Source: Escherichia phage JLBYU40
Sequence record: NC_105514.1
Length of the DNA: 64,000 nucleotides
Direction: 5' to 3' (one strand)
This document shows positions 4,232 to 41,573 of this stretch, one piece after another (the first letter of the stretch is position 1; each line of letters starts with the position of its first letter). Position numbers and translations under genes: made by a program. Below the pieces are notes generated by a model. That model was not told where the DNA came from. It searched no databases and saw only the letters and a list, made by a program, of their open reading frames with translations.

Positions 4232-4320
4232 CTGGCGGAAGAAGTGGGAATCGAACCCACAAGGCTATATTTCAAACCGACAGATTAGCAATCTGCTGCA
4301 ATACCGTTATGCTATTCTTC
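4232..4320 (-). tRNA. tRNA-Ser (GCU), long variable arm
   Basis: Acceptor GGAAGAA/TTCTTCC, anticodon arm GCAGA-TTGCTAA-TCTGT, long variable arm, T-arm GTGGG-TTCGATT-CCCAC, CCA encoded. Confidence 0.65.
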
Positions 4321-4342
4321 CGAATTTATAAGATATATTATA

Positions 4343-4864
4343 TTAGAAATTTAGCTTCATAGCAAGAAAATTTTTCAAGTTTTCGGTAGACATCTCATCT
4401 ACATCTACAGGAGAAACAAAGCCGTTTAATTTTCTAGCAAATTTTTCACCATCGGGATCATTGTCTCCAACAGCTACCAATTTAAAAGGTAGTAATTTCA
4501 GTTGCTTTAATAACGCTTTTCCTGGAGAAGAACCCAACATTGCTAGGGCTGGATAACCAGCGTTATGTAACGCAACTGCCTTAAATACAGATTCAGCAAT
4601 CAATACTACTTTTTCATCTCCATTGAGAGTTTCTAGTCCCCATACACACTGGGTAGTAGAATAAGTAAAGTATTTAGCTTCAAAGGGGCACTTACCATGA
4701 CCTTTTGGAGCAGAAGGATTATAAGTTTGATAGCCCCTCAACATCCCAGAGAAGTCATACAACGGGACTGTTAGCCATCCTTCTGGACTTAACCAGCAAT
4801 GATATTTATCTGTATCAAATCCCCTAGATAAGAGGTGCTGTGTTAGCTCATCAACATTCATATT
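4343..4864 (-). CDS. Toprim-like domain protein (hypothetical)
   Basis: Motifs IAESVFK and LVAVGDNDPDGEKFARKL resemble a Toprim acidic patch; start moved to MNVDEL. Confidence 0.4.
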   Translation of the reverse strand, partial: NMNVDELTQHLLSRGFDTDKYHCWLSPEGWLTVPLYDFSGMLRGYQTYNPSAPKGHGKCPFEAKYFTYSTTQCVWGLETLNGDEKVVLIAESVFKAVALHNAGYPALAMLGSSPGKALLKQLKLLPFKLVAVGDNDPDGEKFARKLNGFVSPVDVDEMSTENLKNFLAMKLNF

Positions 4865-4891
4865 TGGTTCCTCTCTCAAATTTATAGATAT

Positions 4892-4920
4892 ATTATACAG
4901 AGAATTTAGCATTCAAGCAA
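4892..4920 (-). promoter_or_regulatory. sigma70-type promoter (-35 TTGCTT, 17 bp, -10 TATAAT)
   Basis: Plus-strand attata 4892-4897, aagcaa 4915-4920. Confidence 0.6.
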
Positions 4921-5036
4921 TCAAATTTTTTAACTTTTTAGAGGAAAATCATAGGGCGCTTAAGGGTAACAGATAAGTGGTGAGGACCAAAATTTGTGAC
5001 CCCACTAAAAATCCGGGGGCAATTTTTAAAGACCCC

Positions 5037-5065
5037 TTGACATTTTCGCTGGGGTAGTGTAAAGT
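5037..5065 (+). promoter_or_regulatory. sigma70-type promoter (-35 TTGACA, about 17 bp, -10 TAAAGT)
   Basis: ttgaca at 5037-5042; TAAAGT/TATAT-like -10 about 17 bp downstream; followed by SD AGGAGG. Confidence 0.5.
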
Positions 5066-5127
5066 ATATGTTATGGATGAGTGATCAAAGAGACACACAT
5101 TTTCTATATACTAGGAGGTGTCAAAAA

Positions 5128-6114
5128 ATGACAGAAGAAGTAGCTAAGAGTCCTGAGACCGTCGCTAGCGTTGCAGCAGAACTGCACCGTCACGAGGAAT
5201 CAGATAAGAAAAAGTGGGAGAAGGTCAGAGCCTACGAAGAAAAACATCGTGAACACGATGATGAAGAAGATGACGATGATGAACATTGTCATAAATATGG
5301 AAAACATAAAATGCAAGAACCAGTAAACGTATTCACTAGTGGCTTCCCTGGCCTACTGGGTGGTTACCCAGCAAACGCAGGTGCTTTCGGTGGTGAAGGT
5401 ATGGGACTATTCGGAGCTATCCTAATCGGTGCTCTATTAACAGGTGGATTCGGTGGTTTCGGTGGATTCGGTGGACGTGGTGTAGTTGGTGAAGGTACCG
5501 CAGTTGATGCAGTACTTCAGAACCAAGATACCGCTAGTATTCTAGCAGCTATTAACACTACTCGTACAGAAGCTAATCAGGGTACTGGGGCTGTGTTAAG
5601 CGCAGTTAACAATGGTTTTAGCCAGACATCCCAAAACCAGAGCCGTGATACTCAGTCTGTACTAACTACGATTTATGGTACAGGTGCTAATCTGTCTAAT
5701 CAGATCTGCCAGGAAACTCGCAACGTTATTCAGGGTCAGTTCGATCTTTCTCGCCAGATTGATCAATCTTTCGCAGCTAACCAGATAGCTCGTGCACAAG
5801 ATAAATTTGATTCTGCACAGATCGCTTTCCAGCAGACTTTACAAACTAATAACCAGTTTGCCGCTGTTCAGGCTCAGATGTGTGCTAACCAGAACTCTCT
5901 GGAACGTCAGATCGCTGAATGTTGCTGTGAACTTCAGACTGCGATCGCTGGTGTAACTACTGCGCGTATCCAGGATGAGTTAGATGCATGTCGCCTACGT
6001 GAGGCAATCGCTGCGGGTAATGGTGCTAACGATCAGGTAATTAATCAAATCGCTGTAAGTCTTGGTGCAATCACTCAGACTCTGGCTGGTCTGCAGGCTA
6101 AACTGCCGGCTTAA
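5128..6114 (+). CDS. hypothetical protein: acidic/His-rich N-terminus, Gly-zipper hydrophobic segment, long Gln/Asn/Ala-rich helical region
   Basis: ATG 5128 after AGGAGG; GFGGFGGFGG and GAILIGALLTGG; codons biased to highly expressed E. coli-like usage. Confidence 0.6.
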   Translation: MTEEVAKSPETVASVAAELHRHEESDKKKWEKVRAYEEKHREHDDEEDDDDEHCHKYGKHKMQEPVNVFTSGFPGLLGGYPANAGAFGGEGMGLFGAILIGALLTGGFGGFGGFGGRGVVGEGTAVDAVLQNQDTASILAAINTTRTEANQGTGAVLSAVNNGFSQTSQNQSRDTQSVLTTIYGTGANLSNQICQETRNVIQGQFDLSRQIDQSFAANQIARAQDKFDSAQIAFQQTLQTNNQFAAVQAQMCANQNSLERQIAECCCELQTAIAGVTTARIQDELDACRLREAIAAGNGANDQVINQIAVSLGAITQTLAGLQAKLPA

Positions 6115-6135
6115 TATTAAGGGGAGGAGCCCATT

Positions 6136-6552
6136 ATGAGTAAATATGGTTTTGTAAATAACGGACTTAATCAAAGTATGGGCTCCCAGCAGCCCATTCC
6201 GGGTCTGGATAACCCCTACTTACAACAATTGCAACAGCGTTTAGCAGAAGCGCAACAGATGCAGCAACAACTCCAGCAAAACCCTGGAAGTGTGAGTCCT
6301 ATGCAAATGATGCAGCAAATGAGCGGGCAGTCGCAAATGCCTCAACAAATGCAGCAACAGGTGCCTCAGCAGCAAGTTCAGCAACAAACCCAACAACCGC
6401 AGGTTTCTGCGGAAGGACAGGCAGTACTAGCCCTTTTCGAAGACTTCGCAAAGACAGAGGATGGGAAACAGCTTGTATCACTTATGGGTAAGTTTAATAG
6501 CTTCTGCCAAAGCCAGGTTGCAAAAGCTCAAAATAGTGGTAATAACTCCTAA
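6136..6552 (+). CDS. hypothetical Gln-rich protein (138 aa)
   Basis: ORF with SD GGGGAGGAG upstream; about 35% Gln in the central region. Confidence 0.5.
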   Translation: MSKYGFVNNGLNQSMGSQQPIPGLDNPYLQQLQQRLAEAQQMQQQLQQNPGSVSPMQMMQQMSGQSQMPQQMQQQVPQQQVQQQTQQPQVSAEGQAVLALFEDFAKTEDGKQLVSLMGKFNSFCQSQVAKAQNSGNNS

Positions 6553-6561
6553 GGAGGAATT

Positions 6562-6756
6562 ATGTGTTGCAGAAAATCTGTTTCGTGCTGCCCAATGCCT
6601 GTAGCACGTTGTTGCTCTCCAGCAATGTTTACGCAAATACCGGCGTTCAATCCGTTTGCCTTTAAGCCTACTCTTATCCTGCCCCCTAGAGTAGATTTTC
6701 AGTCAAGATTGGCCTCCCGTATGGGTAGTTGCTGTAACAAGAGTATATGGTTCTAA
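6562..6756 (+). CDS. hypothetical Cys-rich small protein (64 aa, four CC doublets)
   Basis: Strong SD AAGGAGGA 5 nt before ATG; 8 Cys arranged as CC pairs. Confidence 0.4.
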   Translation: MCCRKSVSCCPMPVARCCSPAMFTQIPAFNPFAFKPTLILPPRVDFQSRLASRMGSCCNKSIWF

Positions 6757-6772
6757 GGAACCAAACAATAAA

Positions 6773-6806
6773 GCCCCTAGTCGAAAGACTTAGGGGCTTT
6801 TCTTTT
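6773..6806 (+). terminator. rho-independent terminator
   Basis: GCCCCTA/TAGGGGC stem followed by TTTTCTTTT. Confidence 0.6.
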
Positions 6807-6816
6807 ATCTTAAATA

Positions 6817-6851
6817 CAGAAAAGCCCTGCGCTCTCTAGGAAACGCAGGGC
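6817..6851 (-). terminator. rho-independent terminator for the convergent minus-strand gene
   Basis: GCCCTGCG/CGCAGGGC 8-bp stem; U-tract on minus strand (plus-strand agaaaa). Confidence 0.55.
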
Positions 6852-6876
6852 TTATTTCAGATGTTACATGCGGGTA

Positions 6877-7824
6877 TTATTTATTACGCATATCCATAAT
6901 CATTTGGCCATCATAGCCAGTGCCAACCACAGTCTGCGGTACACCACCTTGGTATTTCTGAGCACGAATCATTTCAACTTCCAGTTGCTTCCAGCGAATC
7001 ATCTCAGGAGTAATGGTACGTTGCAATGCGGCGTTAGCTTCAGCTTCTTTCTTAGCTGCATATAGTTTAGCATCTGCGTCACGTTCATTGGCAATAGCTT
7101 GGTTGTTGCGAGCTTCACGGTCTGCTTCTGCTTGTTTAACTTTTTGCTGTGCTTCCTGTTCAACGCGAGCCAGTTCAGCTTTCGCAGCATTAACTTGCTC
7201 TTCACGAACTTTGGTATTCTGTACCTGTTCCATGATTACCGGTGGCAAAGTAATATCCTGAAGGAATACCTGCTTAACTGTATAACCATATGGGCGTGCA
7301 TACTCTTCAACTTCCTGTTGAATTGCAGTTTGCAATTGAGCCTGAATTTTAGCATCAAACAAATCTTGTGCTTTAGGTACAGACTTACCAAACTCACGAA
7401 TAGTAGACAGTAATTTTTCAGTTACATACTTGTCTAGTGCCTGATCCTGAGTACCTGCGTTAATACGGTTAATTGGTGCCTTAGAACCATCAAACTGCAA
7501 CATAACAGTCAGGTCAACAGTGGATTTAAACTTATCCTGGCTAGGAACCTGAAGTTTATCTAATTTTACAGCAATATCTTTTGTACTAAAAGTGTCGAAA
7601 GATGCAAATGGGTTTACAAGATGGAAACCTGGTAATACTGGGTTAGGATCTACTTTACCCAGAAATGTTTGGGTTTTAACCGTACCATCAGAAACAATAG
7701 TATATGAATTAAAAGCTAGGATTAAACCTGCTAAACCAACTACAGCACCAATACCCCAACGTTTAATAGTACGAATTACTTTCTGCTCAGAAGTCAGTTC
7801 TTTCATATTTTTAGTATTAAACAT
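6877..7824 (-). CDS. SPFH / band-7 (prohibitin/HflK-like) membrane protein
   Basis: N-terminal TM helix (GIGAVVGLAGLILAF), then SPFH-like core and Ala/Glu/Gln-rich coiled coil. Confidence 0.6.
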   Translation of the reverse strand: MFNTKNMKELTSEQKVIRTIKRWGIGAVVGLAGLILAFNSYTIVSDGTVKTQTFLGKVDPNPVLPGFHLVNPFASFDTFSTKDIAVKLDKLQVPSQDKFKSTVDLTVMLQFDGSKAPINRINAGTQDQALDKYVTEKLLSTIREFGKSVPKAQDLFDAKIQAQLQTAIQQEVEEYARPYGYTVKQVFLQDITLPPVIMEQVQNTKVREEQVNAAKAELARVEQEAQQKVKQAEADREARNNQAIANERDADAKLYAAKKEAEANAALQRTITPEMIRWKQLEVEMIRAQKYQGGVPQTVVGTGYDGQMIMDMRNK

Positions 7825-7858
7825 ATATTTCCTTTGTTTTAGTTACAGTTAATAAAAT

Positions 7859-7933
7859 TGGCCGAGGTGACAGGATTCGAACCTGCATAAAGGAATTTAG
7901 AAGACTCCTGCCTCTCCCTTAGACTACACCCCG
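7859..7933 (-). tRNA. tRNA-Arg (UCU)
   Basis: Acceptor CGGGGTG/CACCTCG, anticodon arm GGAGT-CTTCTAA-ATTCC, T-arm GCAGG-TTCGAAT-CCTGT, CCA encoded. Confidence 0.65.
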
Positions 7934-8433
7934 TTTAAGTATTTTTAAGAACTCTCGTAAAAACTCTTAAAAATACAGACGATACCGGGAGAGTCATAGG
8001 TCTCACTCATTAAGTATTTCAAGACAAAATACAGTAACGTCTATTATTTTCCAGTTTAAGTCAGGGTGACTTAGTGGTTATGTCCTGCGGTATATTGAGG
8101 ACTCGGTTAGGCTTGGGGTCATGACTTCCCGCCTTTTGCTGCTACTCAACAGGAGTTATCGCGAATTACCTGTGCTATTGTGCACCATTAGTGACATCTC
8201 TCATGCCAGCATTTCCCACTTTGTGGATAGCTTGAAAAACTACTCCGATATGGAGAAAGAACTTCACTATCCTAGAATACCTTCTAAAGTTCTTCTTTAG
8301 CCTGGACATAGTTAAATCGTAATAAAACTATTCAGCAGACCGGTTGGTTAGTCTGGAACCAACTACCGCGTGGTTTAGGCAGTGCGCAACTAACCTCGGA
8401 AGCTTTTACGTTAAAAGCATCAGTTATCCAGTT

Positions 8434-8508
8434 CTTACCGACCGTAGGATTCGAACCTACATCTTCCACCAGTTACGGCTTGATAATACCAATTATACTA
8501 GGACGGCA
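8434..8508 (-). ncRNA. unresolved tRNA-like element
   Basis: T-arm GTAGG-TTCGAAT-CCTAC and partial acceptor pairing, but no canonical anticodon arm found. Confidence 0.25.
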
Positions 8509-8730
8509 GTGTTACTACATAAGTGATTTCCACACCCCACTATTTATAAATTAGAGAAGAGTTTAGGGAAGAGGTTTCAGACGCCTCATTTTACACGTTC
8601 TAGCCACTAACCGGGATTGCCGCCCCCTGTGTACTAGTTTTACAACTAACCCACCGACTCTATTCAATGCACTCCGGTTGGGATTCTGCACTCAGCGTAA
8701 TCGGCTCGCTGTTCCCTAATTTATGAATAT

Positions 8731-8759
8731 ATTATACAGAATTTATAAGCATTTAGCAA
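8731..8759 (-). promoter_or_regulatory. sigma70-type promoter (-35 TTGCTA, 17 bp, -10 TATAAT)
   Basis: Plus-strand attata 8731-8736, tagcaa 8754-8759; points into the 800-nt non-coding stretch. Confidence 0.6.
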
Positions 8760-8767
8760 ATGAATTT

Positions 8768-9202
8768 TTAGAAAAATTCACTAGCGATCAAAGCAGTTGT
8801 TTTACCGTCATAACGTCCAGGAAATTCTGCCTTAATAGTTTTCATTAATAGAGCTTTGGTAATACCTGGGTTTAATTTAACCAGTTCTGCAAAATACTCA
8901 CGAATTTCAGTTTCAGTCAGTTGACTTGGCTGATACTCTTGCAGCATGGAATAAAGCAGTTGCTCATAGTCTACATCAGTAGGAACTTTCGTACCAACTT
9001 TAATAGCGCGCTGCTTTGCATTTTCTAGAGCCTTAATCTGAGCTTTCAGATAGGCTACAAACTCGGTTCGAGTAACAATGTCTTTATCAATACGTTGCAG
9101 GTCGCCAATCATGGTCTGAAGATTAAGTGCCCGCTCTTTATCACCGTGAGTACGTGCTAGACTAAGCAGTCCACGAAGGGTCATTAGGATATTTTCACCC
9201 AT
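8768..9202 (-). CDS. hypothetical protein (144 aa)
   Basis: ORF track; start overlaps stop of upstream small ORF. Confidence 0.5.
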   Translation of the reverse strand: MGENILMTLRGLLSLARTHGDKERALNLQTMIGDLQRIDKDIVTRTEFVAYLKAQIKALENAKQRAIKVGTKVPTDVDYEQLLYSMLQEYQPSQLTETEIREYFAELVKLNPGITKALLMKTIKAEFPGRYDGKTTALIASEFF

Positions 9203-33297: not shown

Positions 33298-34269
33298 ATG
33301 ACTAATGTAAAAGAATTTATCAAACGTTGCCAAGAAGCGTATTACCAGGGAATGTCTTTAATTTCTGACGAAGAATATGATCGTCTGATTAAAAGATTTC
33401 CGTTAGAAGAAGAGATCGGGCCTAAGGGTGATATTCCACATCTGTACCGTATGTATTCTTTACAGAAAGTTTATTATAACCGTGGGGATAAACCACCATT
33501 TAATCCTTTAGGTCAGGTAGAAACTGATAAGTTAGATGGTTGTGCAATTTCTCTGCTATATATTAATGGCGAATTTGTTCAAGCATTAACCCGTGGTAAT
33601 GGTATTCTGGGGAATGATGTCACAAGCAACGTAAGATTGCTGAACATCCCTAAAAAGATTTCCCAAAAAGTACCTACCCAAATCACTGGTGAAGTTCTAA
33701 TTACAAAGGAAGTAGAAAATAAGCGTAACTTTGCCTCTGGTGCTATTAACCTCAAAGATAGCGATGATTTCGTACAACGTATCGGGGAAGGTGGTTTAAT
33801 CTTCGTTGCATATGGTATCCAGTGTTCCCCTGATTCTGTAGGTATTACAGAATCGTATTTAAAAGATATGCTTTGGCTAGAGAATGAGAACTTCTTAACA
33901 GTTGTTAATGTGCGTTCCTTCTTTAAGTGGATTCCGACGGATGGTAAAGTTGTTCGTATTAATGACAACAACAAATTCTTCCGAGAAGGCTGGACTAATA
34001 AATTCCCCCGTGGAGCATTTGCTATTAAAGAGGATGAAGAAGGCGAGATTACAACTCTTACTAAAGTTGAGTGGCAGGTAGGGGCTTCTGGTAAAGTAAC
34101 TCCAGTTGGTTATTTCGAACCGGTAATTATTGATGATGCTACAATTGTTAAAGCGACTCTTAATAACGTTGATTATATTAACTCTCTCGATCTAGAGATC
34201 GGTTGCCAGATTCGAGTGATTCGTGCTGGTGGTGTAATCCCGTGTATAGTAGAGCGAGTATACGATTAA
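33298..34269 (+). CDS. NAD-dependent DNA ligase, N-terminal (adenylation) part
   Basis: KxDG adenylation motif (TDKLDGCAIS) and NAD-ligase-like N-terminus. Confidence 0.75.
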   Translation: MTNVKEFIKRCQEAYYQGMSLISDEEYDRLIKRFPLEEEIGPKGDIPHLYRMYSLQKVYYNRGDKPPFNPLGQVETDKLDGCAISLLYINGEFVQALTRGNGILGNDVTSNVRLLNIPKKISQKVPTQITGEVLITKEVENKRNFASGAINLKDSDDFVQRIGEGGLIFVAYGIQCSPDSVGITESYLKDMLWLENENFLTVVNVRSFFKWIPTDGKVVRINDNNKFFREGWTNKFPRGAFAIKEDEEGEITTLTKVEWQVGASGKVTPVGYFEPVIIDDATIVKATLNNVDYINSLDLEIGCQIRVIRAGGVIPCIVERVYD

Positions 34270-34412
34270 TACATAACCCTTTGCTACCCATCTACCATAT
34301 CGGAATTATAAAGTGGTTATTGACATTTTCGCCGCTTAGGTATATACTATTATCATTCAGTTGAGGGATAGAAAGTTATGGCGAGGGTAAGCAAAGTTAG
34401 TTAAAATTGTAA

Positions 34413-34441
34413 TTGCTAAATGCTTAAATACTTGCTATAAT
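34413..34441 (+). promoter_or_regulatory. sigma70-type promoter between the ligase halves (-35 TTGCTA, 17 bp, -10 TATAAT)
   Basis: ttgcta 34413-34418, tataat 34436-34441; a second TTGACA/TATACT pair near 34320-34348. Confidence 0.55.
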
Positions 34442-34468
34442 ATTTATATAAATTGATAAGGAAGAAAT

Positions 34469-35251
34469 TTGATGAAAATCGAAATTCCAACACAATGTCC
34501 CTCTTGTGGTTCTAAGCTAGATCTTGTCAACGGACAATTATTCTGTCGTAATAAGTCCAACTGTCCAGCGCAATCAAGTAAGTTAATTGAGAACTTCTGT
34601 ACAAAAATGAAGTTAAAGGGCTTTGGCCCGAAAACTATTGAGAAGCTGGAGCTGACGAAGATTTCAGAACTATTTTACCTAGCCGAAGAAGCTTTGGTTA
34701 GAGCCGTGGGTAGCAAGGTTGCCGCTAAGTTAATTAGCGAATTAAATACTAAAGTTCGCGGAGACATTGACTTTGGTTCAGTTCTCGGTTCTTTAGGAAT
34801 CCCTCTAATTGGAGAGGTTGCAGCAAAGAAATTATCCCAAAATTGCACCAGTTTTCACGATGTGAAGGCTGATGGCAAAGCTGGAGAAAACTATAAAGCC
34901 TGGCTAAATTCCCCACAAGGCAAGGATGTTATCGAATTACCGTGGAAATTCACAACTGGTATTAAAGGTGCTAAAACTGAGGTCATCATCACTGATGGTC
35001 TAGTAGCCCAACCAAATGGAATCACGGTGTGTATTACCGGATCTTTGCAAGATTTTGCAAATCGAACGGATGCAACAAACTATTTAGAAGGTCTAGGATA
35101 TACGGTTAAGAAATCCGTTACCAAAGATGTCAAATACCTAATCTGTGAGGATGAATCAAAACGTTCTTCCTCATCTTATAAGAAAGCCGAAACGAATGGG
35201 ATAGAAATCCTGTCGATTAAAGAACTATTGGAGAAAAATAATAATGTCTAA
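34469..35251 (+). CDS. NAD-dependent DNA ligase, C-terminal part (Zn-finger / HhH / BRCT-like)
   Basis: CPSCGSKL...CRNKSNCPAQ zinc-finger pattern and HhH-like GFGPKTIEKL. Confidence 0.7.
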   Translation: MMKIEIPTQCPSCGSKLDLVNGQLFCRNKSNCPAQSSKLIENFCTKMKLKGFGPKTIEKLELTKISELFYLAEEALVRAVGSKVAAKLISELNTKVRGDIDFGSVLGSLGIPLIGEVAAKKLSQNCTSFHDVKADGKAGENYKAWLNSPQGKDVIELPWKFTTGIKGAKTEVIITDGLVAQPNGITVCITGSLQDFANRTDATNYLEGLGYTVKKSVTKDVKYLICEDESKRSSSSYKKAETNGIEILSIKELLEKNNNV

Positions 35252-36011
35252 ACTGAACTGGAACGTAGAAGGTGTAACCGAGTCTCTGAAAGCAAAAGCC
35301 ACTGCTCTGGGTGTTGCTGTAATCTCTCAAGAACAAGTAGCTGCTATTGCTGCTGAACTGGCTGCTGAAACTGGCAAAGATGTTACTGCTCGCTCTGTTG
35401 GCTCTAAACTGCGTAAAGAAGGTTTCGAAGTACAGAAAGCTAACGAAGTACAGAAATCTCCGTGGACTCCTGAGCAGGAAGCTGAACTGGTTGATTTCCT
35501 GAACGCTCATGCTGGTCAGTATACTTATGCTGAAATCGCTGCTGCTGTAGCTGGTGGTCAATTTGGTGCTAAGCAGGTACAGGGTAAGATTCTGAGTCTG
35601 GAAATGACCGCTTCTGTTAAACCAACCGAAAAAGCTGCTGCTGTTCGTTCCTTCACTCCGGATGAAGAAACTGATTTTGTTAATCAGGTTGTTGCTGGTG
35701 CTACTATTGAAGCTATCGCTGCTCACTTCGGTCGTAATATCAAGCAGATCCGCGGTAAAGCTCTGAGCCTGCTTCGTGAAGGTCGTATCGCCGCTATGCC
35801 GGTACAGGAAACCTCAAGTGCTAAAACTCGTGAAGATCTGTTAGAAGGTCTGGATCTGGTTAACATGACTGTTGCTGAGATCGCTGAGAAAACTGGTAAA
35901 TCTGAGCGCGGTGTTAAATCTATGCTGTCTCGTCGTGGTCTGGTTGCTAAGGACTATGATGGTGCCGCTAAGCGTGCTAAACTGGATGCAAAAGCTGCGG
36001 CTGCTGAATAA
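35244..36011 (+). CDS. putative abundant DNA-binding protein with three internal repeats
   Basis: Three about 55-aa repeats each ending in an HTH-like segment; codons skewed to highly expressed usage. Confidence 0.5.
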   Translation: MSKLNWNVEGVTESLKAKATALGVAVISQEQVAAIAAELAAETGKDVTARSVGSKLRKEGFEVQKANEVQKSPWTPEQEAELVDFLNAHAGQYTYAEIAAAVAGGQFGAKQVQGKILSLEMTASVKPTEKAAAVRSFTPDEETDFVNQVVAGATIEAIAAHFGRNIKQIRGKALSLLREGRIAAMPVQETSSAKTREDLLEGLDLVNMTVAEIAEKTGKSERGVKSMLSRRGLVAKDYDGAAKRAKLDAKAAAAE

Positions 36012-36028
36012 TCTGGTAAATTAAACCT

Positions 36029-36060
36029 AAGGGGAGGGGGCTATGCTCCTTCCCCTTTTT
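36029..36060 (+). terminator. rho-independent terminator
   Basis: GGGGAGG...CCTTCCCC hairpin then TTTTT. Confidence 0.55.
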
Positions 36061-36093
36061 GCATTTAGAAGGCACGAAAGCGTGCAAAGGAGA

Positions 36094-37566
36094 ATGACCT
36101 TGTTTAACGTGCAAGCTGTAGTGTTGAAGATGCTTCTAGCTTCCGAACAGAAGCAAATAGCATTGGAAACATTCTCAAAACTGCATAAAGATCATTTTAA
36201 TGACGCTTTCTCCTCAATTTACCAAGCCGTCCAGAATTATTATAAAAAATATAACACAATGCCGTCCATTGATGCACTGATGCTTGAGGCTAATAGGAAC
36301 GCCCGCCTTTCTCAAGCTCTAGTCGTTTTAGCTAACACTCAAATTCCAGAAGTTAGCATGGAACAGGCACTTGAAGTCCTAGAGGCCGAGTATACACAGG
36401 ATTTATTCCTGAAGCTTCTAGAAACAGACGTGCTTCAAGATTTAACAATGCTGGATCAGGGAGAAATTCTTAACCGAGTTGCCTCCCTTCACTTAAAATT
36501 AGAAGAGAAAGTAACGAATACTGGAAAAGTATTCAACGCAGATAACATGCGTATTTTCCAGAGAGAAGAAGATACCAAACTGAACTTAATCGCTCTTGGT
36601 ATTTGTAATGAGTTCGACGCTCAAATTGGTTTAGCTCGCACAGAAACGTTACTGCTTGGTGGTTGGCGTGGTACTGGTAAATCCATTATCTGTTCAAACA
36701 TACAGGTTCAGCAATATTTGAATGGGGATATTGCTCCATACTTCTCAATTGAGATGAAAGAACATGAAGTATTTAGACGTAATCTAGCCATGTTAGCCGG
36801 TGTATCAGCACTAGCAATGCGTAATAATACTCTAGAAGGTGCAGCTCTGTTGAGATTAGCCAGAACTAGAGCTAGGATGTTTAATGGTGGTGAAGAGCTT
36901 TTCGATAACTTCGTTAAACAGTACACAATGGCTAAGATGAGTGATTTCTACGATATGGAAAGTAAGCTAATAGAAGGATATGAGCTACATACTCCTATGA
37001 TTATTGTTTATGATCCTGAGCTGTCTATTACAACAGTTGACGTAGAATTAAATAAATTAGTTGCTAGATATGGGGATAAAGTTACAGTAGCTTTACTGGA
37101 CTATATTAACCAAACCCGACTTCCAGACTCTAAAACCATTGATATGTATGACTGGAAAGAACAGATGGTTGTTAGCTCGTCTTTCAAATCTATCTGCCAG
37201 AAACATAACGTGGCTGGTGTAGCCCCTTACCAGATTGATCAAGATGGTAGAACACGTATGTCAAAGGGGATTCTTGATTCCGCAGACATGGCTGCTAATC
37301 TTAATGCTGCAAAAGCTGATAATGGTCAAGGTGCTATTATGTTTGACTTCGTTAAGACTCGTTCTTCTGATAGCGTGAAGTTTATGCCTAAAATGAACTG
37401 GGAAACCCTACGGATGGATAACACTACCAACCTAGCAATGGAAGATATATCTCAAATGGAAGCTGAGTTCGTTATCCCTATTGAGAAGGATAAGCCGGCT
37501 CAATCTAAACGTGCTAAGAAAGACAAAGCTGAAAATTCAACGGGTGAACAGGCCAGCGATATATGA
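36094..37566 (+). CDS. DnaB-like replicative helicase (RecA-fold ATPase)
   Basis: Start MTLFNV after SD AAAGGAGA; Walker A GGWRGTGKS, DnaB-like C-terminal domain. Confidence 0.65.
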   Translation: MTLFNVQAVVLKMLLASEQKQIALETFSKLHKDHFNDAFSSIYQAVQNYYKKYNTMPSIDALMLEANRNARLSQALVVLANTQIPEVSMEQALEVLEAEYTQDLFLKLLETDVLQDLTMLDQGEILNRVASLHLKLEEKVTNTGKVFNADNMRIFQREEDTKLNLIALGICNEFDAQIGLARTETLLLGGWRGTGKSIICSNIQVQQYLNGDIAPYFSIEMKEHEVFRRNLAMLAGVSALAMRNNTLEGAALLRLARTRARMFNGGEELFDNFVKQYTMAKMSDFYDMESKLIEGYELHTPMIIVYDPELSITTVDVELNKLVARYGDKVTVALLDYINQTRLPDSKTIDMYDWKEQMVVSSSFKSICQKHNVAGVAPYQIDQDGRTRMSKGILDSADMAANLNAAKADNGQGAIMFDFVKTRSSDSVKFMPKMNWETLRMDNTTNLAMEDISQMEAEFVIPIEKDKPAQSKRAKKDKAENSTGEQASDI

Positions 37567-38453
37567 GTAGAATAACAGAACTACTTGATCTGAAAGGCAT
37601 TGAATATAAAGACACAGGTGGGGACATCCTCATCTGTTGTCTCAATCCAGATCATGACGATAAACACCCAAGTTTGCGTATTGACCCTGAAACAGGTATT
37701 ATGCACTGCTTGAGTTGTGGCTTCGGTAAAGGTATACCGAGCATTTACCACTATTTTAATGAGACTCAGTACCGACAGTCCCCAAGGCTATCGCAAGTAC
37801 GTAAAAAGATTTCAGAGATTAGGAATGGATCAACGAATCTTGCAATTCCTGAATCTGCTTGCCTTTTCGAAGGTGATTTCCGAGGTATAAGTTCTAAGAC
37901 CTTGAAGAAATATTTTGCTTTCCAACACCAAGCAGACTGGGAAGGCAGAATTGTATTCCCAATCACAGATGCTGTTGGACGCAATATCCTATTTTTGGGT
38001 CGTTCTATAAACAGTTCTGCCCCTCCTAAATACTTAGTAAAACCAAAACAAGTTTCACCGCCAATTTTTCCTGTACGATATAATACTCCAGTCCTTATTC
38101 TAGTTGAAGGCATCTTTGATATGCTGAACCTAGAGGATAATGGTATAGACTATGCTTCTTGCTGCTTTGGTACACATCAGTTTACTTCGGATAACATTGC
38201 AGATAAGTTCAGTCCTTATATTATTGCCGGTGTAAAAGTTGTTGTTATCTTACTAGATAATGATGCTTCTGGTAATAAAGCTGCACAAGCATTGGCCAAG
38301 CTAATTCGTACAAAAACGCGTTTAACACCTATAGTTGCTAACTTTCTTCTGCCTGAAGGTAAAGACCCTGGTGACTTAAATAAAGAAGAGATTGATATGT
38401 TAGCAAAACGTATTGAAATTTTAGTTGCTGAATCGCTTAAAGATTTGGTATAA
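37563..38453 (+). CDS. DNA primase (DnaG-like: CHC2 zinc finger plus Toprim)
   Basis: Zn-finger CCLNPDHDDKHPSLRIDPETGIMHCLSCG; Toprim EGIFD...LLDNDASG. Confidence 0.8.
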   Translation: MSRITELLDLKGIEYKDTGGDILICCLNPDHDDKHPSLRIDPETGIMHCLSCGFGKGIPSIYHYFNETQYRQSPRLSQVRKKISEIRNGSTNLAIPESACLFEGDFRGISSKTLKKYFAFQHQADWEGRIVFPITDAVGRNILFLGRSINSSAPPKYLVKPKQVSPPIFPVRYNTPVLILVEGIFDMLNLEDNGIDYASCCFGTHQFTSDNIADKFSPYIIAGVKVVVILLDNDASGNKAAQALAKLIRTKTRLTPIVANFLLPEGKDPGDLNKEEIDMLAKRIEILVAESLKDLV

Positions 38454-38454
38454 T
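38425..38454 (+). promoter_or_regulatory. sigma70-type promoter with extended -10 (TTGCTG, 18 bp, TGgTATAAT)
   Basis: Lies within the 3' end of the primase gene, upstream of the polymerase start. Confidence 0.45.
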
Positions 38455-38515
38455 ATATTGGTAAGTTAGAGAAGAAACACTGAAGTTATACTTGCTTACC
38501 AAGAGGAGATTAAAT

Positions 38516-41083
38516 TTGAAAATCGCAGTAGTTGATAAAGCTCTAAATAACACTCGTTATGATAAACATTTCCAGTTATACGGCGAGGAAGTTGATGTAT
38601 TCCATATGTGTAACGAGAAGTTGTCCGGTCGTTTGCTCAAAAAGCATATTACTATCGGGACTCCGGAAAACCCATTTGACCCGAATGATTATGATTTTGT
38701 TATACTAGTAGGTGCTGAACCTTTCCTGTACTTCGCAGGTAAGAAAGGCATTGGTGACTATACTGGTAAACGTGTAGAGTATAATGGATATGCTAACTGG
38801 ATTGCGAGTATCAGCCCAGCCCAGTTACACTTTAAGCCTGAAATGAAACCAGTTTTTGATGCAACAGTAGAGAATATCCACGATATTATCAATGGTCGTG
38901 AGAAGATTGCAAAAGCTGGTGATTACCGTCCTATTACTGACCCTGACGAGGCGGAAGAATATATCAAGATGGTGTATAGTATGGTTATCGGACCTGTCGC
39001 ATTCGACTCCGAAACCTCAGCATTATACTGTCGAGATGGTTATCTGCTTGGTGTTTCTATATCTCACCAAGAGTATCAGGGTGTGTATATTGATTCTGAT
39101 TGTCTCACAGAGGTTGCAGTATATTATCTCCAGAAAATTCTGGATAGTGAAAACCACACTATTGTTTTTCACAACTTGAAGTTTGATATGCACTTTTATA
39201 AGTACCATCTGGGACTTACATTTGATAAAGCACATAAAGAACGCAGGCTCCATGATACCATGTTGCAGCATTATGTTCTAGATGAGCGTCGTGGTACTCA
39301 TGGCTTGAAATCTCTAGCAATGAAGTACACCGATATGGGTGACTATGACTTTGAACTAGATAAGTTCAAGGATGATTACTGCAAAGCACATAAAATCAAG
39401 AAAGAAGATTTCACCTATGATTTAATTCCGTTTGATATTATGTGGCCTTACGCTGCAAAAGATACCGATGCTACCATACGTTTACACAACTTCTTCTTAC
39501 CAAAAATTGAGAAGAATGAAAAACTTTGCAGTCTGTATTATGATGTCCTAATGCCTGGTTGTGTATTTCTCCAGCGTGTTGAGGATCGTGGTGTACCAAT
39601 TTCTATTGATCGCTTGAAAGAAGCACAGTACCAGTTAACTCATAATCTGAATAAAGCTCGTGAGAAGCTGTATACTTATCCAGAAGTAGTTCAGCTAGAG
39701 AAAGATCAGAATGAAGCATTTAATCCTAACTCTGTTAAGCAGCTACGTGTTCTTCTATTTGATTATGTTGGCTTAACTCCAACAGGTAAATTGACGGATA
39801 CTGGAGCAGACTCTACAGATGCAGAAGCTCTGAATGAACTGGCTACGCAGCATCCAATTGCTAAAACTCTGCTAGAGATTCGTAAGCTGACTAAGCTGAT
39901 CTCTACTTACGTTGAGAAAATTCTTCTGAGCATTGATGCTGATGGTTGCATTCGTACTGGCTTCCACGAACACATGACTACTTCTGGTCGTCTGAGTTCT
40001 TCTGGTAAGCTGAACCTGCAACAGTTACCTCGTGATGAATCTATTATCAAGGGTTGTGTAGTAGCTCCTCCTGGGTATCGTGTAATCGCATGGGACTTAA
40101 CAACTGCGGAAGTTTATTATGCTGCTGTTCTATCTGGTGATAGAAATATGCAACAGGTATTTATCAACATGAGAAATGAACCTGATAAATACCCTGACTT
40201 CCACTCTAACATCGCACACATGGTATTTAAGCTCCAATGCGAACCTCGTGATGTTAAAAAGTTATTCCCAGCTCTGCGTCAAGCAGCTAAAGCAATTACC
40301 TTTGGTATTTTGTATGGTTCTGGCCCAGCTAAAGTAGCTCATTCTGTTAACGAAGCTCTTCTGGAGCAGGCTACTAAGACAGGCGAACCGTTTGTAGAGT
40401 GTACTGTTGCAGATGCTAAAGAGTACATTGAAACTTACTTCGGTCAGTTCCCGCAGCTTAAGCGTTGGATTGATAAGTGCCACGATCAGATCAAGAATCA
40501 TGGATTTATCTATAGTCACTTTGGTCGTAAACGTCGTCTGCATAATATCCACTCCGAAGACCGTGGTGTTCAGGGTGAAGAAATCCGTTCTGGATTTAAC
40601 GCAATCATTCAGTCTGCTTCTTCTGATAGCCTCCTTTTAGGTGCGGTAGATGCAGATAATGAGATCATTTCTCTTGGCCTAGAACAAGAGATGAAGATTG
40701 TTATGCTAGTTCACGACTCCGTAGTTGCTATTGTTCGTGAAGACTTGATTGATCAATACAATGAAATCCTGATTCGTAATATTCAGAAAGACCGTGGTAT
40801 CAGTATTCCTGGCTGTCCGATTGGTATTGATTCAGATTCTGAAGCTGGAGGTTCTCGTGACTATTCTTGTGGTAAGATGAAGAAACAGCACCCATCAATC
40901 GCTTGTATTGATGATGATGAATATACTCGTTATGTCAAGGGTGTATTACTTGATGCAGAGTTCGAGTATAAGAAACTAGCTGCAATGGATAAAGAGCATC
41001 CAGATCATAGCAAATACAAGGATGATAAGTTTATTGCTGTATGTAAAGATCTGGATAACGTGAAAAGGATTCTCGGTGCTTAA
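38516..41083 (+). CDS. DNA polymerase, family A with 3'-5' exonuclease domain
   Basis: TTG start after SD AAGAGGAG gives 855 aa; exo motifs near VAFDSETS; polymerase motifs ...KAITFGILYGSG and LVHDSV. Confidence 0.9.
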   Translation: MKIAVVDKALNNTRYDKHFQLYGEEVDVFHMCNEKLSGRLLKKHITIGTPENPFDPNDYDFVILVGAEPFLYFAGKKGIGDYTGKRVEYNGYANWIASISPAQLHFKPEMKPVFDATVENIHDIINGREKIAKAGDYRPITDPDEAEEYIKMVYSMVIGPVAFDSETSALYCRDGYLLGVSISHQEYQGVYIDSDCLTEVAVYYLQKILDSENHTIVFHNLKFDMHFYKYHLGLTFDKAHKERRLHDTMLQHYVLDERRGTHGLKSLAMKYTDMGDYDFELDKFKDDYCKAHKIKKEDFTYDLIPFDIMWPYAAKDTDATIRLHNFFLPKIEKNEKLCSLYYDVLMPGCVFLQRVEDRGVPISIDRLKEAQYQLTHNLNKAREKLYTYPEVVQLEKDQNEAFNPNSVKQLRVLLFDYVGLTPTGKLTDTGADSTDAEALNELATQHPIAKTLLEIRKLTKLISTYVEKILLSIDADGCIRTGFHEHMTTSGRLSSSGKLNLQQLPRDESIIKGCVVAPPGYRVIAWDLTTAEVYYAAVLSGDRNMQQVFINMRNEPDKYPDFHSNIAHMVFKLQCEPRDVKKLFPALRQAAKAITFGILYGSGPAKVAHSVNEALLEQATKTGEPFVECTVADAKEYIETYFGQFPQLKRWIDKCHDQIKNHGFIYSHFGRKRRLHNIHSEDRGVQGEEIRSGFNAIIQSASSDSLLLGAVDADNEIISLGLEQEMKIVMLVHDSVVAIVREDLIDQYNEILIRNIQKDRGISIPGCPIGIDSDSEAGGSRDYSCGKMKKQHPSIACIDDDEYTRYVKGVLLDAEFEYKKLAAMDKEHPDHSKYKDDKFIAVCKDLDNVKRILGA

Positions 41084-41573
41084 TTTCAAATTGCCCGTCT
41101 ATGCATTACGGGCGTTTGTATCAATTGAGCAAGAAGGTGATTATTCCGTAATTACAACAAGATATAATAAATATGTGCTAGATAACAGGAAGTTGTCTGG
41201 CACGTTTTCTCAACGTAGGCTTATTCTATTTGAGAAACGGAAAGAATTACCATACAAGCTCTATCCTATTAGGGGTAGAATATCAATGTTGTCTCAATTA
41301 GTTGGGTCAAAGCGTAACCAATTTATAGATTCTGATGGAAATCTTATTAATTGGAAGAAAACTACGTTCTATGATGTTGTCACCTCTAAAGTTTTGCATT
41401 CAGCTAGAATTTATAATGGAAAATACCAATGCTATGTGGCTAAAGTTCCTTATCCATTTGTATTATCCTATGTTCCAGCTTATATAAGCTATATTCTGGT
41501 AAATAATAGCCCTGTTATTTATCAAGTCCATCAAGAGGAGCCTGAAATTCCTAGACTTAGAATAAAATTATGA
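41076..41573 (+). CDS. hypothetical protein (start uncertain)
   Basis: ORF track; GTG start overlaps polymerase stop. Confidence 0.35.
   Translation: MLNFKLPVYALRAFVSIEQEGDYSVITTRYNKYVLDNRKLSGTFSQRRLILFEKRKELPYKLYPIRGRISMLSQLVGSKRNQFIDSDGNLINWKKTTFYDVVTSKVLHSARIYNGKYQCYVAKVPYPFVLSYVPAYISYILVNNSPVIYQVHQEEPEIPRLRIKL

What the first reader, a model, noticed from the sequence alone, without database searches (positions are those of the whole stretch)
5037..6806. Self-contained opposite-strand module encoding three low-complexity proteins (Gly-zipper membrane protein, Gln-rich protein, CC-doublet peptide)
Within an otherwise minus-strand early region, a plus-strand unit has its own TTGACA promoter, three ORFs with strong Shine-Dalgarno sites and its own terminator, and faces a convergent terminator from the neighbouring gene. 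The products are unusual: the first has an acidic His-rich head, a glycine-zipper hydrophobic segment (GFGGFGGFGG) and a long Gln/Asn-rich helical region with a CCC triplet; the second is about one-third glutamine; the third carries eight cysteines as four CC pairs. Codon usage looks tuned for high expression. I cannot assign any of them to a known family, so this is the strongest candidate here for an undescribed host-takeover, membrane-acting or anti-defence module.
Basis: partly seen in the sequence, partly recalled or inferred. Interest (0 to 1): 0.7.

Follow-up and report, generated by a model that had tools for sequence, protein, structure and literature searches.

The report
Mobile three-gene phage membrane cassette
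This is a real, self-contained three-gene operon of T5-like phages (the copy of T5 genes T5.077-T5.079) that encodes a probably membrane-anchored rod-like protein and two small cysteine-bearing proteins, is dispensable in the laboratory, also occurs in unrelated phage families, and has no known function.

Summary
Window 5037-6806 is the orthologue of the phage T5 unit [quoted passage not shown]. It has a conserved sigma-70 promoter, three ORFs with strong ribosome-binding sites under purifying selection, its own terminator and a convergent one.

None of the three proteins matches a characterised family in Pfam, NCBIfam, PADLOC, PDB sequence profiles or Foldseek.

New here:
- The trio travels as one cassette. 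It is also found in an N4-like contig, lambdoid-type contigs and Pseudomonas phages RSP/KPP23. There it is accompanied by a divergent zinc-ribbon gene.
- The large protein belongs to a superfamily of at least 565 uncharacterised phage protein clusters, defined by an almost invariant "AECCCE" motif. Members occur in crAss-like, Seuratvirus and Firmicute phages.
- The cassette is accessory. It lies in T5's deletable st0 / tRNA-rich region beside the anti-retron gene Rad. It is reported missing from BF23 and is present in about half of close T5 relatives.

Function is not established. My best guess, at low confidence, is an early-expressed, cysteine-linked complex at the cell envelope used for phage competition or envelope protection. 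Anti-defence, virion-fibre and lysis-accessory readings stay open. Host takeover is unlikely.

The parts
5021..5065 (+). Promoter: A/T-rich upstream element (AATTTTTAAAG), -35 TTGACA (5037-5042), 17-nt spacer, -10 TAAAGT (5060-5065). Orthologue of T5 promoter P12.
   Evidence: 10/12 match; -35 invariant, -10 and upstream element largely conserved in six T5-like loci, including two with P1 about 43% identical; T5 annotation.
5066..5127 (+). 5' leader with Shine-Dalgarno AGGAGG (5113-5118), 9 nt before the ATG.
5128..6114 (+). P1 (328 aa), orthologue of T5.077 / T5p075 and member of PHROG 8119. Conserved N-terminal helix (aa 12-45), acidic/His-rich linker (aa 36-61), conserved MQEPVNVFT motif, glycine-zipper hydrophobic segment (aa 91-116), then about 190 aa of Q/N/A/T-rich helix carrying the invariant CCC, and a highly conserved C-terminal helix (INQIAVSLGAITQTLA).
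5398..5475 (+). Codons for the glycine-zipper / fusion-peptide-like hydrophobic segment GMGLFGAILIGALLTGGFGGFGGFGG (aa 91-116), the presumed membrane anchor.
   Evidence: G110 and G112 invariant; mean Kyte-Doolittle 1.72 over 19 aa; short helix 95-104.
5920..5928 (+). TGT TGC TGT: the CCC triplet (aa 265-267), invariant in the P1 subfamily and the hallmark of the whole superfamily (motif Q-I/L-A-E-CCC-E-L-K).
   Evidence: C265-267 at least 90% conserved in 29 distant members; 93 of 105 sequences carry CCC.
6136..6552 (+). P2 (138 aa), orthologue of T5.078 and member of PHROG 7894. Conserved N-terminal helix (YLQQLQQRLAEAQ), variable Q/P-rich linker, conserved C-terminal domain (EGQAVLALFEDFAKTEDGKQLVSLMGKFNSFCQS) with one invariant Cys. 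Mislabelled 'cAMP-dependent protein kinase catalytic subunit' in some records.
   Evidence: (no kinase domain).
6562..6756 (+). P3 (64 aa, net charge +7), orthologue of T5.079. Begins MCC, has a second conserved CC, an NPF motif, and is Pro/Phe-rich. No signal peptide or lipobox visible in the sequence.
   Evidence: homologous ORFs.
6770..6806 (+). Intrinsic terminator of the unit (hairpin plus TTTTCTTTT). It also folds on the minus strand. Orthologue of T5 'efficient bidirectional rho-independent terminator' (ter1).
   Evidence: (-20.2 kcal/mol, z -5.5; minus strand -19.8).
6822..6853 (-). Convergent terminator of the neighbouring SPFH/band-7 gene (6877-7824, minus strand). It bounds the unit but is not part of it.
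   Evidence: (-22.9 kcal/mol, z -4.7).

Best explanation
It is an autonomous, horizontally mobile accessory operon (a 'moron') of T5-like phages, the orthologue of T5 P12-T5.077-T5.078-T5.079-ter1.

Shown:
- A conserved promoter with a consensus -35 hexamer, so host RNA polymerase should transcribe it without phage factors. T5 records call it an early promoter.
- Three translationally well-signalled genes under purifying selection, and a private terminator.
- Co-transfer of the three genes as a block between unrelated phage groups.
- Dispensability for growth in laboratory E. coli.

Inferred:
- P1 is held at the inner membrane by its glycine-zipper segment and oligomerises.
- Its roughly 190-residue Q/N-rich helical rod is locked through the invariant CCC, either by disulfides or by a metal-thiolate cluster.
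- P2 and the basic MCC peptide P3 are its partners. They have no signal peptide and each carries its own invariant cysteines.

Speculative, but my preferred mechanism: the complex remodels or occupies the envelope of the infected cell soon after infection. It would either exclude or compete with other phages, or protect membrane integrity. It would not take over host metabolism.
For: Autonomy of the unit: plus the T5 annotation.

Coding status: dN/dS 0.06-0.29.

The three genes stay together in the same order in:
- distant T5-like contigs;
- Pseudomonas phages RSP/KPP23;
- lambdoid-type contigs, between the Q antiterminator and the lysis genes, with a bidirectional terminator after P3;
- an N4-like contig.
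In all but the Pseudomonas phages the unit runs against its neighbours on both sides.

Foreign-looking composition: module GC 45-47% against 35-42% in the flanks.

Accessory and dispensable:
- inside the st0 deletion of T5;
- spontaneous deletions of about 8 kb in this region in T5n and SP15m;
- reported absent from BF23;
- about 221 records against about 443 with a closely related polymerase.

Architecture:
- invariant G110/G112, C252, CCC265-267 and the C-terminal helix;
- AlphaFold model with 105 sequences, mean pLDDT 67: helix 12-45 (pLDDT about 90), short helix 95-104, long helices 135-169 and 175-325;
- hydrophobic periodicity 3.6-3.67.

Cysteines are conserved in all three proteins. P1 has a high CAI of 0.44. 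T5-likes already carry a canonical holin, endolysin and spanin cassette elsewhere.
Against: - No experiment or homology links the cassette to any function.
- Membrane insertion is only predicted, and the hydrophobic segment is borderline.
- Topology is contradictory. The K/R-rich N-tail (12 K/R) argues N-in, so a single pass would place the rod in the periplasm. Yet many superfamily members have no hydrophobic segment or signal peptide, and neither P2 nor P3 has a signal peptide. That argues for a cytoplasmic CCC domain.
- Physical interaction of P1, P2 and P3 is inferred only from co-inheritance.
- Superfamily members in crAss-like, SPP1-like, eiAU and Seuratvirus genomes sit in or beside structural gene blocks, which favours a virion role.
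- No hit in PADLOC.
- No superinfection-exclusion phenotype has been reported for this region.
Confidence: 0.35

Rival explanations
1. Anti-defence (counter-immunity) cassette: the three proteins neutralise a host defence system, possibly one that acts at the membrane, as part of the T5 'anti-defence island'.
For: - It lies directly beside Rad (window 4343-4912), the Toprim protein reported to inhibit retrons. It is inside the roughly 8-kb tRNA-rich region whose loss lowers plating on retron-carrying hosts and, in the preprint, on AVAST type 2. The AVAST determinant was not mapped.
- It is accessory, mobile and variable in occurrence, like known anti-defence genes.
Against: - The retron phenotypes mapped to other fragments: tRNA-Tyr, ORF75/Rad and ORF71-73. 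Nothing has been assigned to this cassette.
- No similarity to any characterised protein.
- An abundant, probably membrane-anchored coiled-coil protein is unusual among known anti-defence proteins (my own knowledge).
Confidence: 0.2
2. Dispensable virion component: P1 forms a cysteine-cross-linked coiled-coil fibre or decoration, or an ejected membrane-inserting protein, and P2/P3 are assembly partners.
For: - Superfamily members sit within or next to structural gene blocks: between TerS and the capsid genes in crAss-like genomes, between portal and scaffold genes in an SPP1-like contig, and just after tail genes in eiAU and Seuratvirus.
- crAss-like records label them 'spike protein/glycoprotein' or 'outer capsid protein/viral fiber'.
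- In one gut-phage contig the next gene weakly matches the BclA C-terminal knob (E 8e-5, below the Pfam cut-off).
- P1 has a long rod and a high CAI.
- The heat-stable st0 mutant, a standard T5 laboratory strain (my own knowledge), lacks the region, so virion studies done on it would not have seen P1.
Against: - In T5-likes the unit is in the early region, behind a promoter with a consensus -35 hexamer that T5 records annotate as early, and is oriented against its neighbours.
- In KPP23, a record that labels a nearby gene 'virion protein', the three genes are 'hypothetical'.
- The st0 deletion mutant, which lacks the region, is viable.
- A glycine-rich hydrophobic segment is odd for a fibre.
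Confidence: 0.15
3. Lysis accessory: P1 acts like a holin or antiholin (one hydrophobic segment plus a large extra-membrane domain, as in T4 T) or like a spanin-type fusogen (fusion-peptide-like segment plus coiled coil). P3 would be a small cationic envelope-acting peptide.
For: - In the lambdoid-type contigs the cassette abuts the holin-lysozyme-Rz genes.
- The superfamily profile's best, non-significant, PDB hits are class I fusion proteins: influenza HA2 and coronavirus S2, E 0.02-0.3.
- P1 contains GLFGAI, the first six residues of the HA2 fusion peptide (my own knowledge).
- P3 is small and strongly basic.
Against: - T5-like phages have a complete holin, endolysin, i-spanin and o-spanin cassette elsewhere.
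- The promoter type implies early expression, which would be lethal for a holin.
- P3 has no signal peptide or lipobox, and there is no C-terminal membrane anchor.
- Deletion mutants lyse and plaque.
- The PDB hits look compositional.
Confidence: 0.1
4. Metal-handling module: His-rich, Gln-rich and CC-containing proteins bind Ni, Zn or Cu, as the H. pylori proteins Hpn and Hpn-like do.
For: - Composition: HHYHHHHHEH tracts in some P1 orthologues, the Q-rich P2, and CC pairs in P3.
- Invariant cysteines in all three proteins.
Against: - The His-rich tract and the Q-rich linker are the least conserved parts and are missing in the distant cassettes.
- No match to any metal-binding family.
- No obvious benefit to a lytic phage.
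Confidence: 0.05

Closest known systems
Phage T5 transcription unit P12 - T5.077/T5.078/T5.079 (T5p075-077; ORF072-074 'kapc' in AY587007) - terminator ter1
   Same: Direct orthologue. Same order, strand, promoter, terminator and neighbours: Rad/Toprim upstream, SPFH gene and a major nick site downstream. P1 is 81% identical to T5, and P3 differs from T5's at a single residue.
   Different: Nothing substantive. The T5 unit is itself uncharacterised: all products are 'hypothetical', and one carries a spurious kinase label.
Phage 'morons' (accessory units with their own promoter and terminator, such as lambda bor and lom)
   Same: Own promoter and terminator. Inserted in varied places in unrelated phages, against both neighbours in all contexts but RSP/KPP23. 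GC content differs from the host phage genome. Dispensable.
   Different: Classic morons are mostly single genes in temperate phages, expressed from the prophage. This is a three-gene (elsewhere four-gene) block found mainly in virulent phages. No hit was found in one-per-species bacterial genomes.
Early membrane-level superinfection-exclusion proteins of virulent phages (T4 Imm and Sp; T5 Llp) - functional analogy only, from my own knowledge
   Same: Early, dispensable, envelope-located accessory proteins of lytic coliphages.
   Different: No sequence or fold similarity. No exclusion phenotype is known for this cassette. This is three proteins, one with a long coiled-coil rod.
Spanins (lambda Rz/Rz1) and class I viral fusion proteins (influenza HA2, coronavirus S2)
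   Same: A hydrophobic or glycine-rich membrane-active segment followed by a long coiled coil with conserved cysteines. Sub-threshold profile hits to HA2 and S2.
   Different: E-values are not significant. There is no lipoprotein partner, no C-terminal anchor and no lysis-cassette position in T5. T5-likes have their own spanins.
Uncharacterised 'CCC-motif' phage superfamily (PHROGs 8119, 9288, 16490; crAss-like genes labelled 'spike protein/glycoprotein' or 'outer capsid protein/viral fiber')
   Same: P1 shares the glycine-rich hydrophobic segment, the Q/N-rich helices and the AECCCE-LK...RLRDEL core.
   Different: Only the P1 subfamily has the conserved N-terminal helix and is linked to P2 and P3. 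The other members have different neighbours, and many have Cys/Pro- or Gly/Tyr-rich C-terminal tails.

Membership tests
T5 P12/T5.077-079 unit (orthology) | Same three genes, order and strand, between the Toprim (Rad) gene and the SPFH gene, with the promoter and bidirectional terminator. | tested here: met
PHROG 8119 (P1) and PHROG 7894 (P2) | Full-length profile match. | tested here: met
   E 7.8e-203 over 1-328, and 3.6e-80 over 1-138. P3 matches no PHROG.
Phage moron | Own promoter and terminator, insertion at varied positions in otherwise unrelated genomes, dispensable, atypical composition. | tested here: met
Two-component spanin (Rz/Rz1) | o-spanin: signal peptide with a lipobox cysteine. 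| tested here: not met
   P3 begins MCCRKS, with no hydrophobic signal sequence visible in the sequence.
Two-component spanin (Rz/Rz1) | i-spanin: N-terminal membrane anchor directly followed by a periplasmic coiled coil; gene in the lysis cassette; needed for lysis. | tested here: not met
   P1 has a roughly 90-aa charged N-terminal domain before the anchor. The unit is far from the T5-type lysis cassette, which has its own spanins. Deletion mutants are viable.
Class I viral fusion protein (HA2/S2-like) | Significant sequence or fold similarity; fusion peptide plus HR1/HR2 plus a C-terminal transmembrane anchor. | tested here: not met
   Best PDB profile hits have E 0.02-0.3 with compositional alignments. 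Foldseek E > 2. No C-terminal anchor. The fusion-peptide-like segment is a resemblance only.
Holin (T4 T-like or pinholin) | Late expression; lethal hole formation; membrane topology. | not testable with these tools
   Indirect only: a promoter with a consensus -35 hexamer, annotated as early in T5 records. No Pfam holin match.
Pfam glycine-zipper families (Gly-zipper_Omp, _YMGG, _OmpA) | Profile match above threshold. | tested here: not met
   No such hit even at E <= 1. Only a 9-bit PDB hit to SlyB.
Protein kinase ('cAMP-dependent protein kinase catalytic subunit', the GenBank label for P2 orthologues) | Protein kinase catalytic domain. | tested here: not met
   No kinase domain in Pfam or NCBIfam. 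P2 is 138 aa and 27.5% Gln.
Known anti-phage defence proteins (PADLOC) | Profile match. | tested here: not met
   no hit for P1, P2 or P3.
Known anti-defence proteins | Rescue of phage plating on a defended host. | not testable with these tools
   Published fragment screens assign the retron phenotypes to other genes of the region. I found no library of anti-defence profiles to search.
Apolipoprotein A1/A4/E-type amphipathic repeats | Pfam PF01442 above the gathering score. | tested here: not met
   Long superfamily members reach at most 40.5 bits against a cut-off of 90. P1 itself has no hit. Its 3.6-3.67 periodicity is compatible but not specific.

The most novel reading that the evidence does not exclude
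The cassette, and more broadly the CCC-motif superfamily of at least 565 clusters spread over T5-like, N4-like, lambdoid, crAss-like and Firmicute phages, is a previously unrecognised class of phage membrane-active machinery. In this reading a glycine-zipper, fusion-peptide-like segment drives a cysteine-locked coiled-coil rod into or across the host envelope. P2 and the MCC peptide P3 are dedicated partners. The machinery is used early in infection to exclude rival phages or to blunt envelope-based immunity.
Probability: 0.2. Interest if true: 0.8.

Novelty: categorically new. Interest (0 to 1): 0.55.

Why it matters
- T5 is a model phage, yet this well-delimited unit, whose largest gene has codon usage typical of highly expressed genes, has stayed 'hypothetical' for twenty years. 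It sits in the region now known to hold counter-defence genes (Rad, tRNA-Tyr).
- The three genes move together between unrelated phage families. That makes them a defined, testable functional unit rather than three orphan ORFs.
- P1 is the T5 representative of a very large uncharacterised superfamily that includes conserved genes of human-gut crAss-like phages. Its function could therefore be worked out in E. coli and then transferred to phages that are hard to study.
- The invariant CCC and MCC motifs point to unusual protein chemistry: a disulfide knot or a metal-thiolate cluster.

Tried and rejected
- Pfam, NCBIfam and PADLOC on all three proteins: nothing above noise.
- PDB sequence-profile searches with the P1 subfamily, the superfamily and P2 alignments: only weak hits that look compositional, such as DnaJ G/F region, SlyB, HA2, spike and designer PPR.
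- AlphaFold model of P1 with 17 sequences (pLDDT 47) and with 105 sequences (pLDDT 67). Foldseek against PDB gave E > 2 both times, and the top hits (Vipp1/PspA) are generic long helices.
- P3 as a detached version of the Cys/Pro-rich C-terminal tail of gut-phage P1-like proteins. An HMM of 54 tails scores the real P3 sequences no better than shuffled ones, so I rejected this.
- Prophage origin. A scan of one genome per bacterial species found no relative of P1. IMG/VR returned only T5-like contigs.
- Positive-inside analysis across 105 superfamily members. K/R counts on the two flanks are nearly equal (0.41 against 0.52), so topology stays undecided.
- Literature searches for T5.077-079, T5p075-077 and BASEL locus tags found no paper. 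I found no T5 transcriptome covering this region. [quoted passage not shown]
- Rfam on 4300-9000: no RNA family in the unit.
- Chance ORFs: rejected on dN/dS and cross-lineage conservation.
Full report
**What the window is.** The 2-kb stretch around the finding is 98% identical to many Tequintavirus genomes (Salmonella phage Kenya-K37, Escherichia phage BUCT632, Shigella phage SSP1). 236 phage records match it. The surrounding window carries 12 tRNA genes on the minus strand, so this is the tRNA-rich early region of a T5-like phage.

**Checking the observation.**
- *Promoter.* The plus strand has TTGACA-17-TAAAGT at 5037-5065, a 10/12 match. Promoter-like matches are not enriched in the region as a whole (4 found against 7.9 expected in shuffles).
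- *Promoter conservation.* The -35 hexamer is invariant, and most of the -10 hexamer and an upstream TTTTAAAG element are conserved. This holds even in two T5-like contigs whose P1 is only about 43% identical.
- *ORFs.* Three follow, each with a strong Shine-Dalgarno sequence: P1 5128-6114 (328 aa), P2 6136-6552 (138 aa) and P3 6562-6756 (64 aa).
- *Terminators.* A hairpin plus T-run at 6770-6806 folds at -20.2 kcal/mol (z = -5.5). A second hairpin at 6822-6853 on the minus strand (-22.9 kcal/mol, z = -4.7) ends the convergent SPFH gene.
- *Protein composition.* The description is accurate, with minor corrections. P2 is 27.5% Gln. P3 has four CC pairs. P1 has GFGGFGGFGG and CCC at 265-267.
- *Codon adaptation.* It is high only for P1: CAI 0.44 against a window median of 0.25. 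P2 is 0.245 and P3 is 0.22.

**It is already annotated in T5, but not understood.**
- The T5 records AY734508 and NC_005859 annotate exactly this unit: promoter P12, T5p075-077 (= T5.077-T5.079, all 'hypothetical protein'), then an 'efficient bidirectional rho-independent terminator'. A major single-strand nick follows.
- AY587007 calls the promoter 'putative early promoter T5P21'. It splits P1 into two ORFs and labels P2 'kapc, cAMP-dependent protein kinase catalytic subunit'. That label is spurious, because no kinase domain is present.
- AY734508 also places the unit inside the st0 deletion (33667-41891 of wild type). The unit is therefore dispensable for growth.
- Spontaneous deletions of about 8 kb in the same tRNA-rich region are described for T5n and SP15m.
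- BF23 is reported to lack ORF071-075, which covers Rad, this cassette and the SPFH gene.
[quoted passage not shown] I did not verify that it removes the cassette.
- P1 is found in 221 phage records. About 443 records carry a DNA polymerase at least 80% identical to the window's. The cassette is therefore accessory, present in roughly half of close relatives.
- I found no paper that mentions these genes.

**The three ORFs are genes and form a unit.**
- Pairwise dN/dS against T5-type and STG2-type relatives is 0.13-0.17 for P1, 0.06-0.23 for P2 and 0.09-0.28 for P3.
- The trio keeps its order in several settings:
  - distant T5-like contigs, with P1 at 43% identity;
  - Pseudomonas phages RSP and KPP23 (63 kb, GC-rich, next to the terminase genes);
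  - lambdoid-type contigs, between the Q antiterminator/NinG genes and the holin-lysozyme-Rz genes;
  - an N4-like contig carrying the virion RNA polymerase.
- In the T5-like, lambdoid-type and N4-like contexts the unit runs against its neighbours on both sides.
- In the lambdoid context a bidirectional terminator again follows P3 directly.
- In the three non-T5 contexts a small zinc-ribbon gene lies 80-110 bp upstream on the other strand. The copies are homologous to each other and absent from the T5-likes. It may be a fourth member, perhaps a regulator.
- The module's GC content (45-47%) exceeds that of its flanks (35-42%).
- These are the properties of a mobile 'moron'.
- No relative of P1 was found in one-genome-per-species bacterial genomes.

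**Anatomy of the proteins.**
- *P1 regions* (alignment; AlphaFold with 105 sequences, mean pLDDT 67):
  - a conserved N-terminal helix (aa 12-45, pLDDT about 90);
  - a variable acidic/His-rich linker;
  - a conserved MQEPVNVFTNG motif;
  - the glycine-zipper segment GMGLFGAILIGALLTGGFGGFGGFGG, followed by a conserved Arg;
  - two long helices (135-169 and 175-325).
- *P1 conserved residues.* C252, CCC265-267 and much of the C-terminal helix INQIAVSLGAITQTLA are invariant.
- *P1 helix character.* Hydrophobic periodicity is 3.6-3.67 residues, which fits amphipathic or hendecad helices rather than a classic heptad.
- *P2.* It has a conserved N-terminal helix, a variable Q/P-rich linker, and a conserved C-terminal domain of about 40 aa with one invariant Cys.
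- *P3.* It is basic (+7) and Pro/Phe-rich. Only Met1, Cys2 (Cys3 in most lineages), a second CC pair and one Phe are conserved.

**A large hidden superfamily.**
- A profile of the P1 subfamily finds 105 representatives at E <= 1e-3 among 1.84 billion cluster representatives. A broader profile finds 565 clusters at 90% identity.
- Members share the core '...LQAC.NQNAL.RQIAECCCELK..I......RLRDEL..'. 93 of the 105 sequences I aligned carry CCC.
- Most have the GGFGGFGG-type hydrophobic segment near the N-terminus. Some have neither a hydrophobic segment nor a signal peptide.
- They fall in PHROGs 8119, 9288 and 16490, all of unknown function, and none has a Pfam domain.
- They occur in:
  - 90-100-kb crAss-like genomes, between the TerS and capsid genes, labelled 'spike protein/glycoprotein' or 'outer capsid protein/viral fiber';
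  - a Bacteroides phage;
  - an SPP1-like contig, between the portal and scaffold genes;
  - a Firmicute temperate phage, between the lysin and integrase genes;
  - Edwardsiella phage eiAU and Seuratvirus STP-SP5, just after tail genes.
- The Seuratvirus block ends with a 69-aa 'MCGNACC...' Pro/Phe-rich peptide that recalls P3.
- Only the P1 subfamily is linked to P2 and P3.

**What it is not.**
- There is no significant match to any solved structure by sequence profile or by fold.
- The best sub-threshold profile hits are influenza HA2 and coronavirus S2 (E 0.02-0.3). The alignments look compositional.
- The resemblance is real at the level of architecture: a glycine-rich hydrophobic peptide, here even 'GLFGAI', followed by a Q/N-rich coiled coil. 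It is a lead, not homology.
- It is not the phage's spanin pair. T5-likes have a complete lysis cassette elsewhere, and P3 has no lipobox.
- P3 is not a detached copy of the Cys/Pro-rich tails seen in gut-phage members.

**Most likely mechanism, and its limits.**
- *Shown:* an autonomous transcription unit with a conserved consensus-like promoter; three co-inherited, selected genes; mobility between phage groups; dispensability.
- *Inferred:* P1 is anchored at the inner membrane, oligomerises through its glycine zipper and long helices, and is locked at the CCC. P2 and P3 are partners.
- *Open:* topology.
  - The N-tail has 12 Lys/Arg, which argues that it stays in the cytoplasm. With a single pass, the rod would then be periplasmic and the cysteines would form disulfides.
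  - The signal-less, anchor-less relatives and the signal-less P2 and P3 argue instead for a cytoplasmic CCC domain, a hairpin anchor and a metal-thiolate cluster.
  - Flank-charge statistics across the superfamily do not decide.
- *Preferred function:* I favour an early envelope-level accessory role, either exclusion of competitors or membrane protection. Four properties point that way: the unit looks early, is probably membrane-associated, is accessory, and is useful to very different phages.
- *Confidence:* about 0.35 for this explanation as a whole.
- *Rivals that remain open:* anti-defence (position next to Rad), dispensable virion fibre (contexts of the superfamily, high CAI of P1), lysis accessory, and metal handling.

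**Novelty and value.**
- The unit's existence is not new. Its mobility, the zinc-ribbon companion, the conserved MCC/CCC chemistry and P1's membership of a very large uncharacterised superfamily are, as far as I could find, undescribed.
- Nothing characterised resembles it, so I cannot place it in any known kind of system.
- Its biological importance is unproven, so interest is moderate.

Noticed in passing
window 4343-4912 (minus strand): 189-aa Toprim 'primase-like' protein divergent from the cassette. It is the orthologue of T5.076 / SP15 ORF75, reported as Rad, an inhibitor of retron defence. It weakly matches a PADLOC DRT 'RTasDnaG-like' model (E 1e-5).
   Followed up: partly
L009 4716-4919 (-), L011 4756-4911 (-), L004 5263-5409 (-), L015 3328-3513 (-): A small zinc-ribbon protein (48-67 aa, CxxC...CxxC plus a basic tail) is encoded divergently, 80-110 bp upstream of P1, in the lambdoid-type, N4-like and Pseudomonas-phage copies of the cassette. 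The copies are homologous to each other (E 1e-6 to 1e-17) and absent from T5-likes. Possibly a regulator and fourth cassette member.
   Followed up: partly
window 6822-6853: The convergent terminator hairpin contains TGCGCT. The equivalent T5 position is annotated as 'major single-stranded nick 3, 32.6%' (consensus Pu-GCGC). A programmed DNA nick therefore probably lies just outside the cassette.
   Followed up: no
window 6877-7824 (minus strand): SPFH/band-7 membrane protein (315 aa), variously annotated 'lipoprotein', 'protease regulator' or 'membrane protease'. Its CAI is high (0.43), and it is reported deleted together with the cassette in BF23.
   Followed up: no
window 8436-8507 (minus strand): Rfam finds a tRNA-like element (35.5 bits) that ARAGORN did not report. 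T5 record AY587007 marks a pseudo-tRNA here, and NC_005859 annotates the whole stretch after tRNA-Arg as stable 'RNAX' of unknown function.
   Followed up: no
window 5128-6756 compared with T5 (L028): Synonymous divergence from T5 is uneven across the cassette: dS is 0.49 for P1 but only 0.10 for P2 and 0.08 for P3. This suggests a recombination breakpoint inside the unit.
   Followed up: no
GenBank records of T5-like phages (for example AY587007 'kapc', HMD-P4, ESCO40): P2 orthologues are propagated as 'cAMP-dependent protein kinase catalytic subunit'. There is no kinase domain, and the label probably stems from a glutamine-rich low-complexity match.
   Followed up: yes
L037 4810-5214; L012 5926-6342; L039 5009-5458: In gut-phage contexts the P1-like gene is followed by a roughly 135-150-aa protein that looks beta-rich. 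One copy matches the BclA C-terminal (exosporium hair knob) domain at E 8e-5, below Pfam's cut-off. This hints that some superfamily members build fibre-like structures.
   Followed up: partly
L016 2934-3640 (Salmonella phage STP-SP5): The CCC-family gene appears split between two frames: the glycine-rich N-terminal part is in one ORF and the CCC part in another. This is either a sequencing error or a frameshift.
   Followed up: no
window 35244-36011 (plus strand): This 255-aa ORF has by far the highest codon adaptation in the window (CAI 0.71). It is presumably a very abundant early protein. I did not identify it.
   Followed up: no
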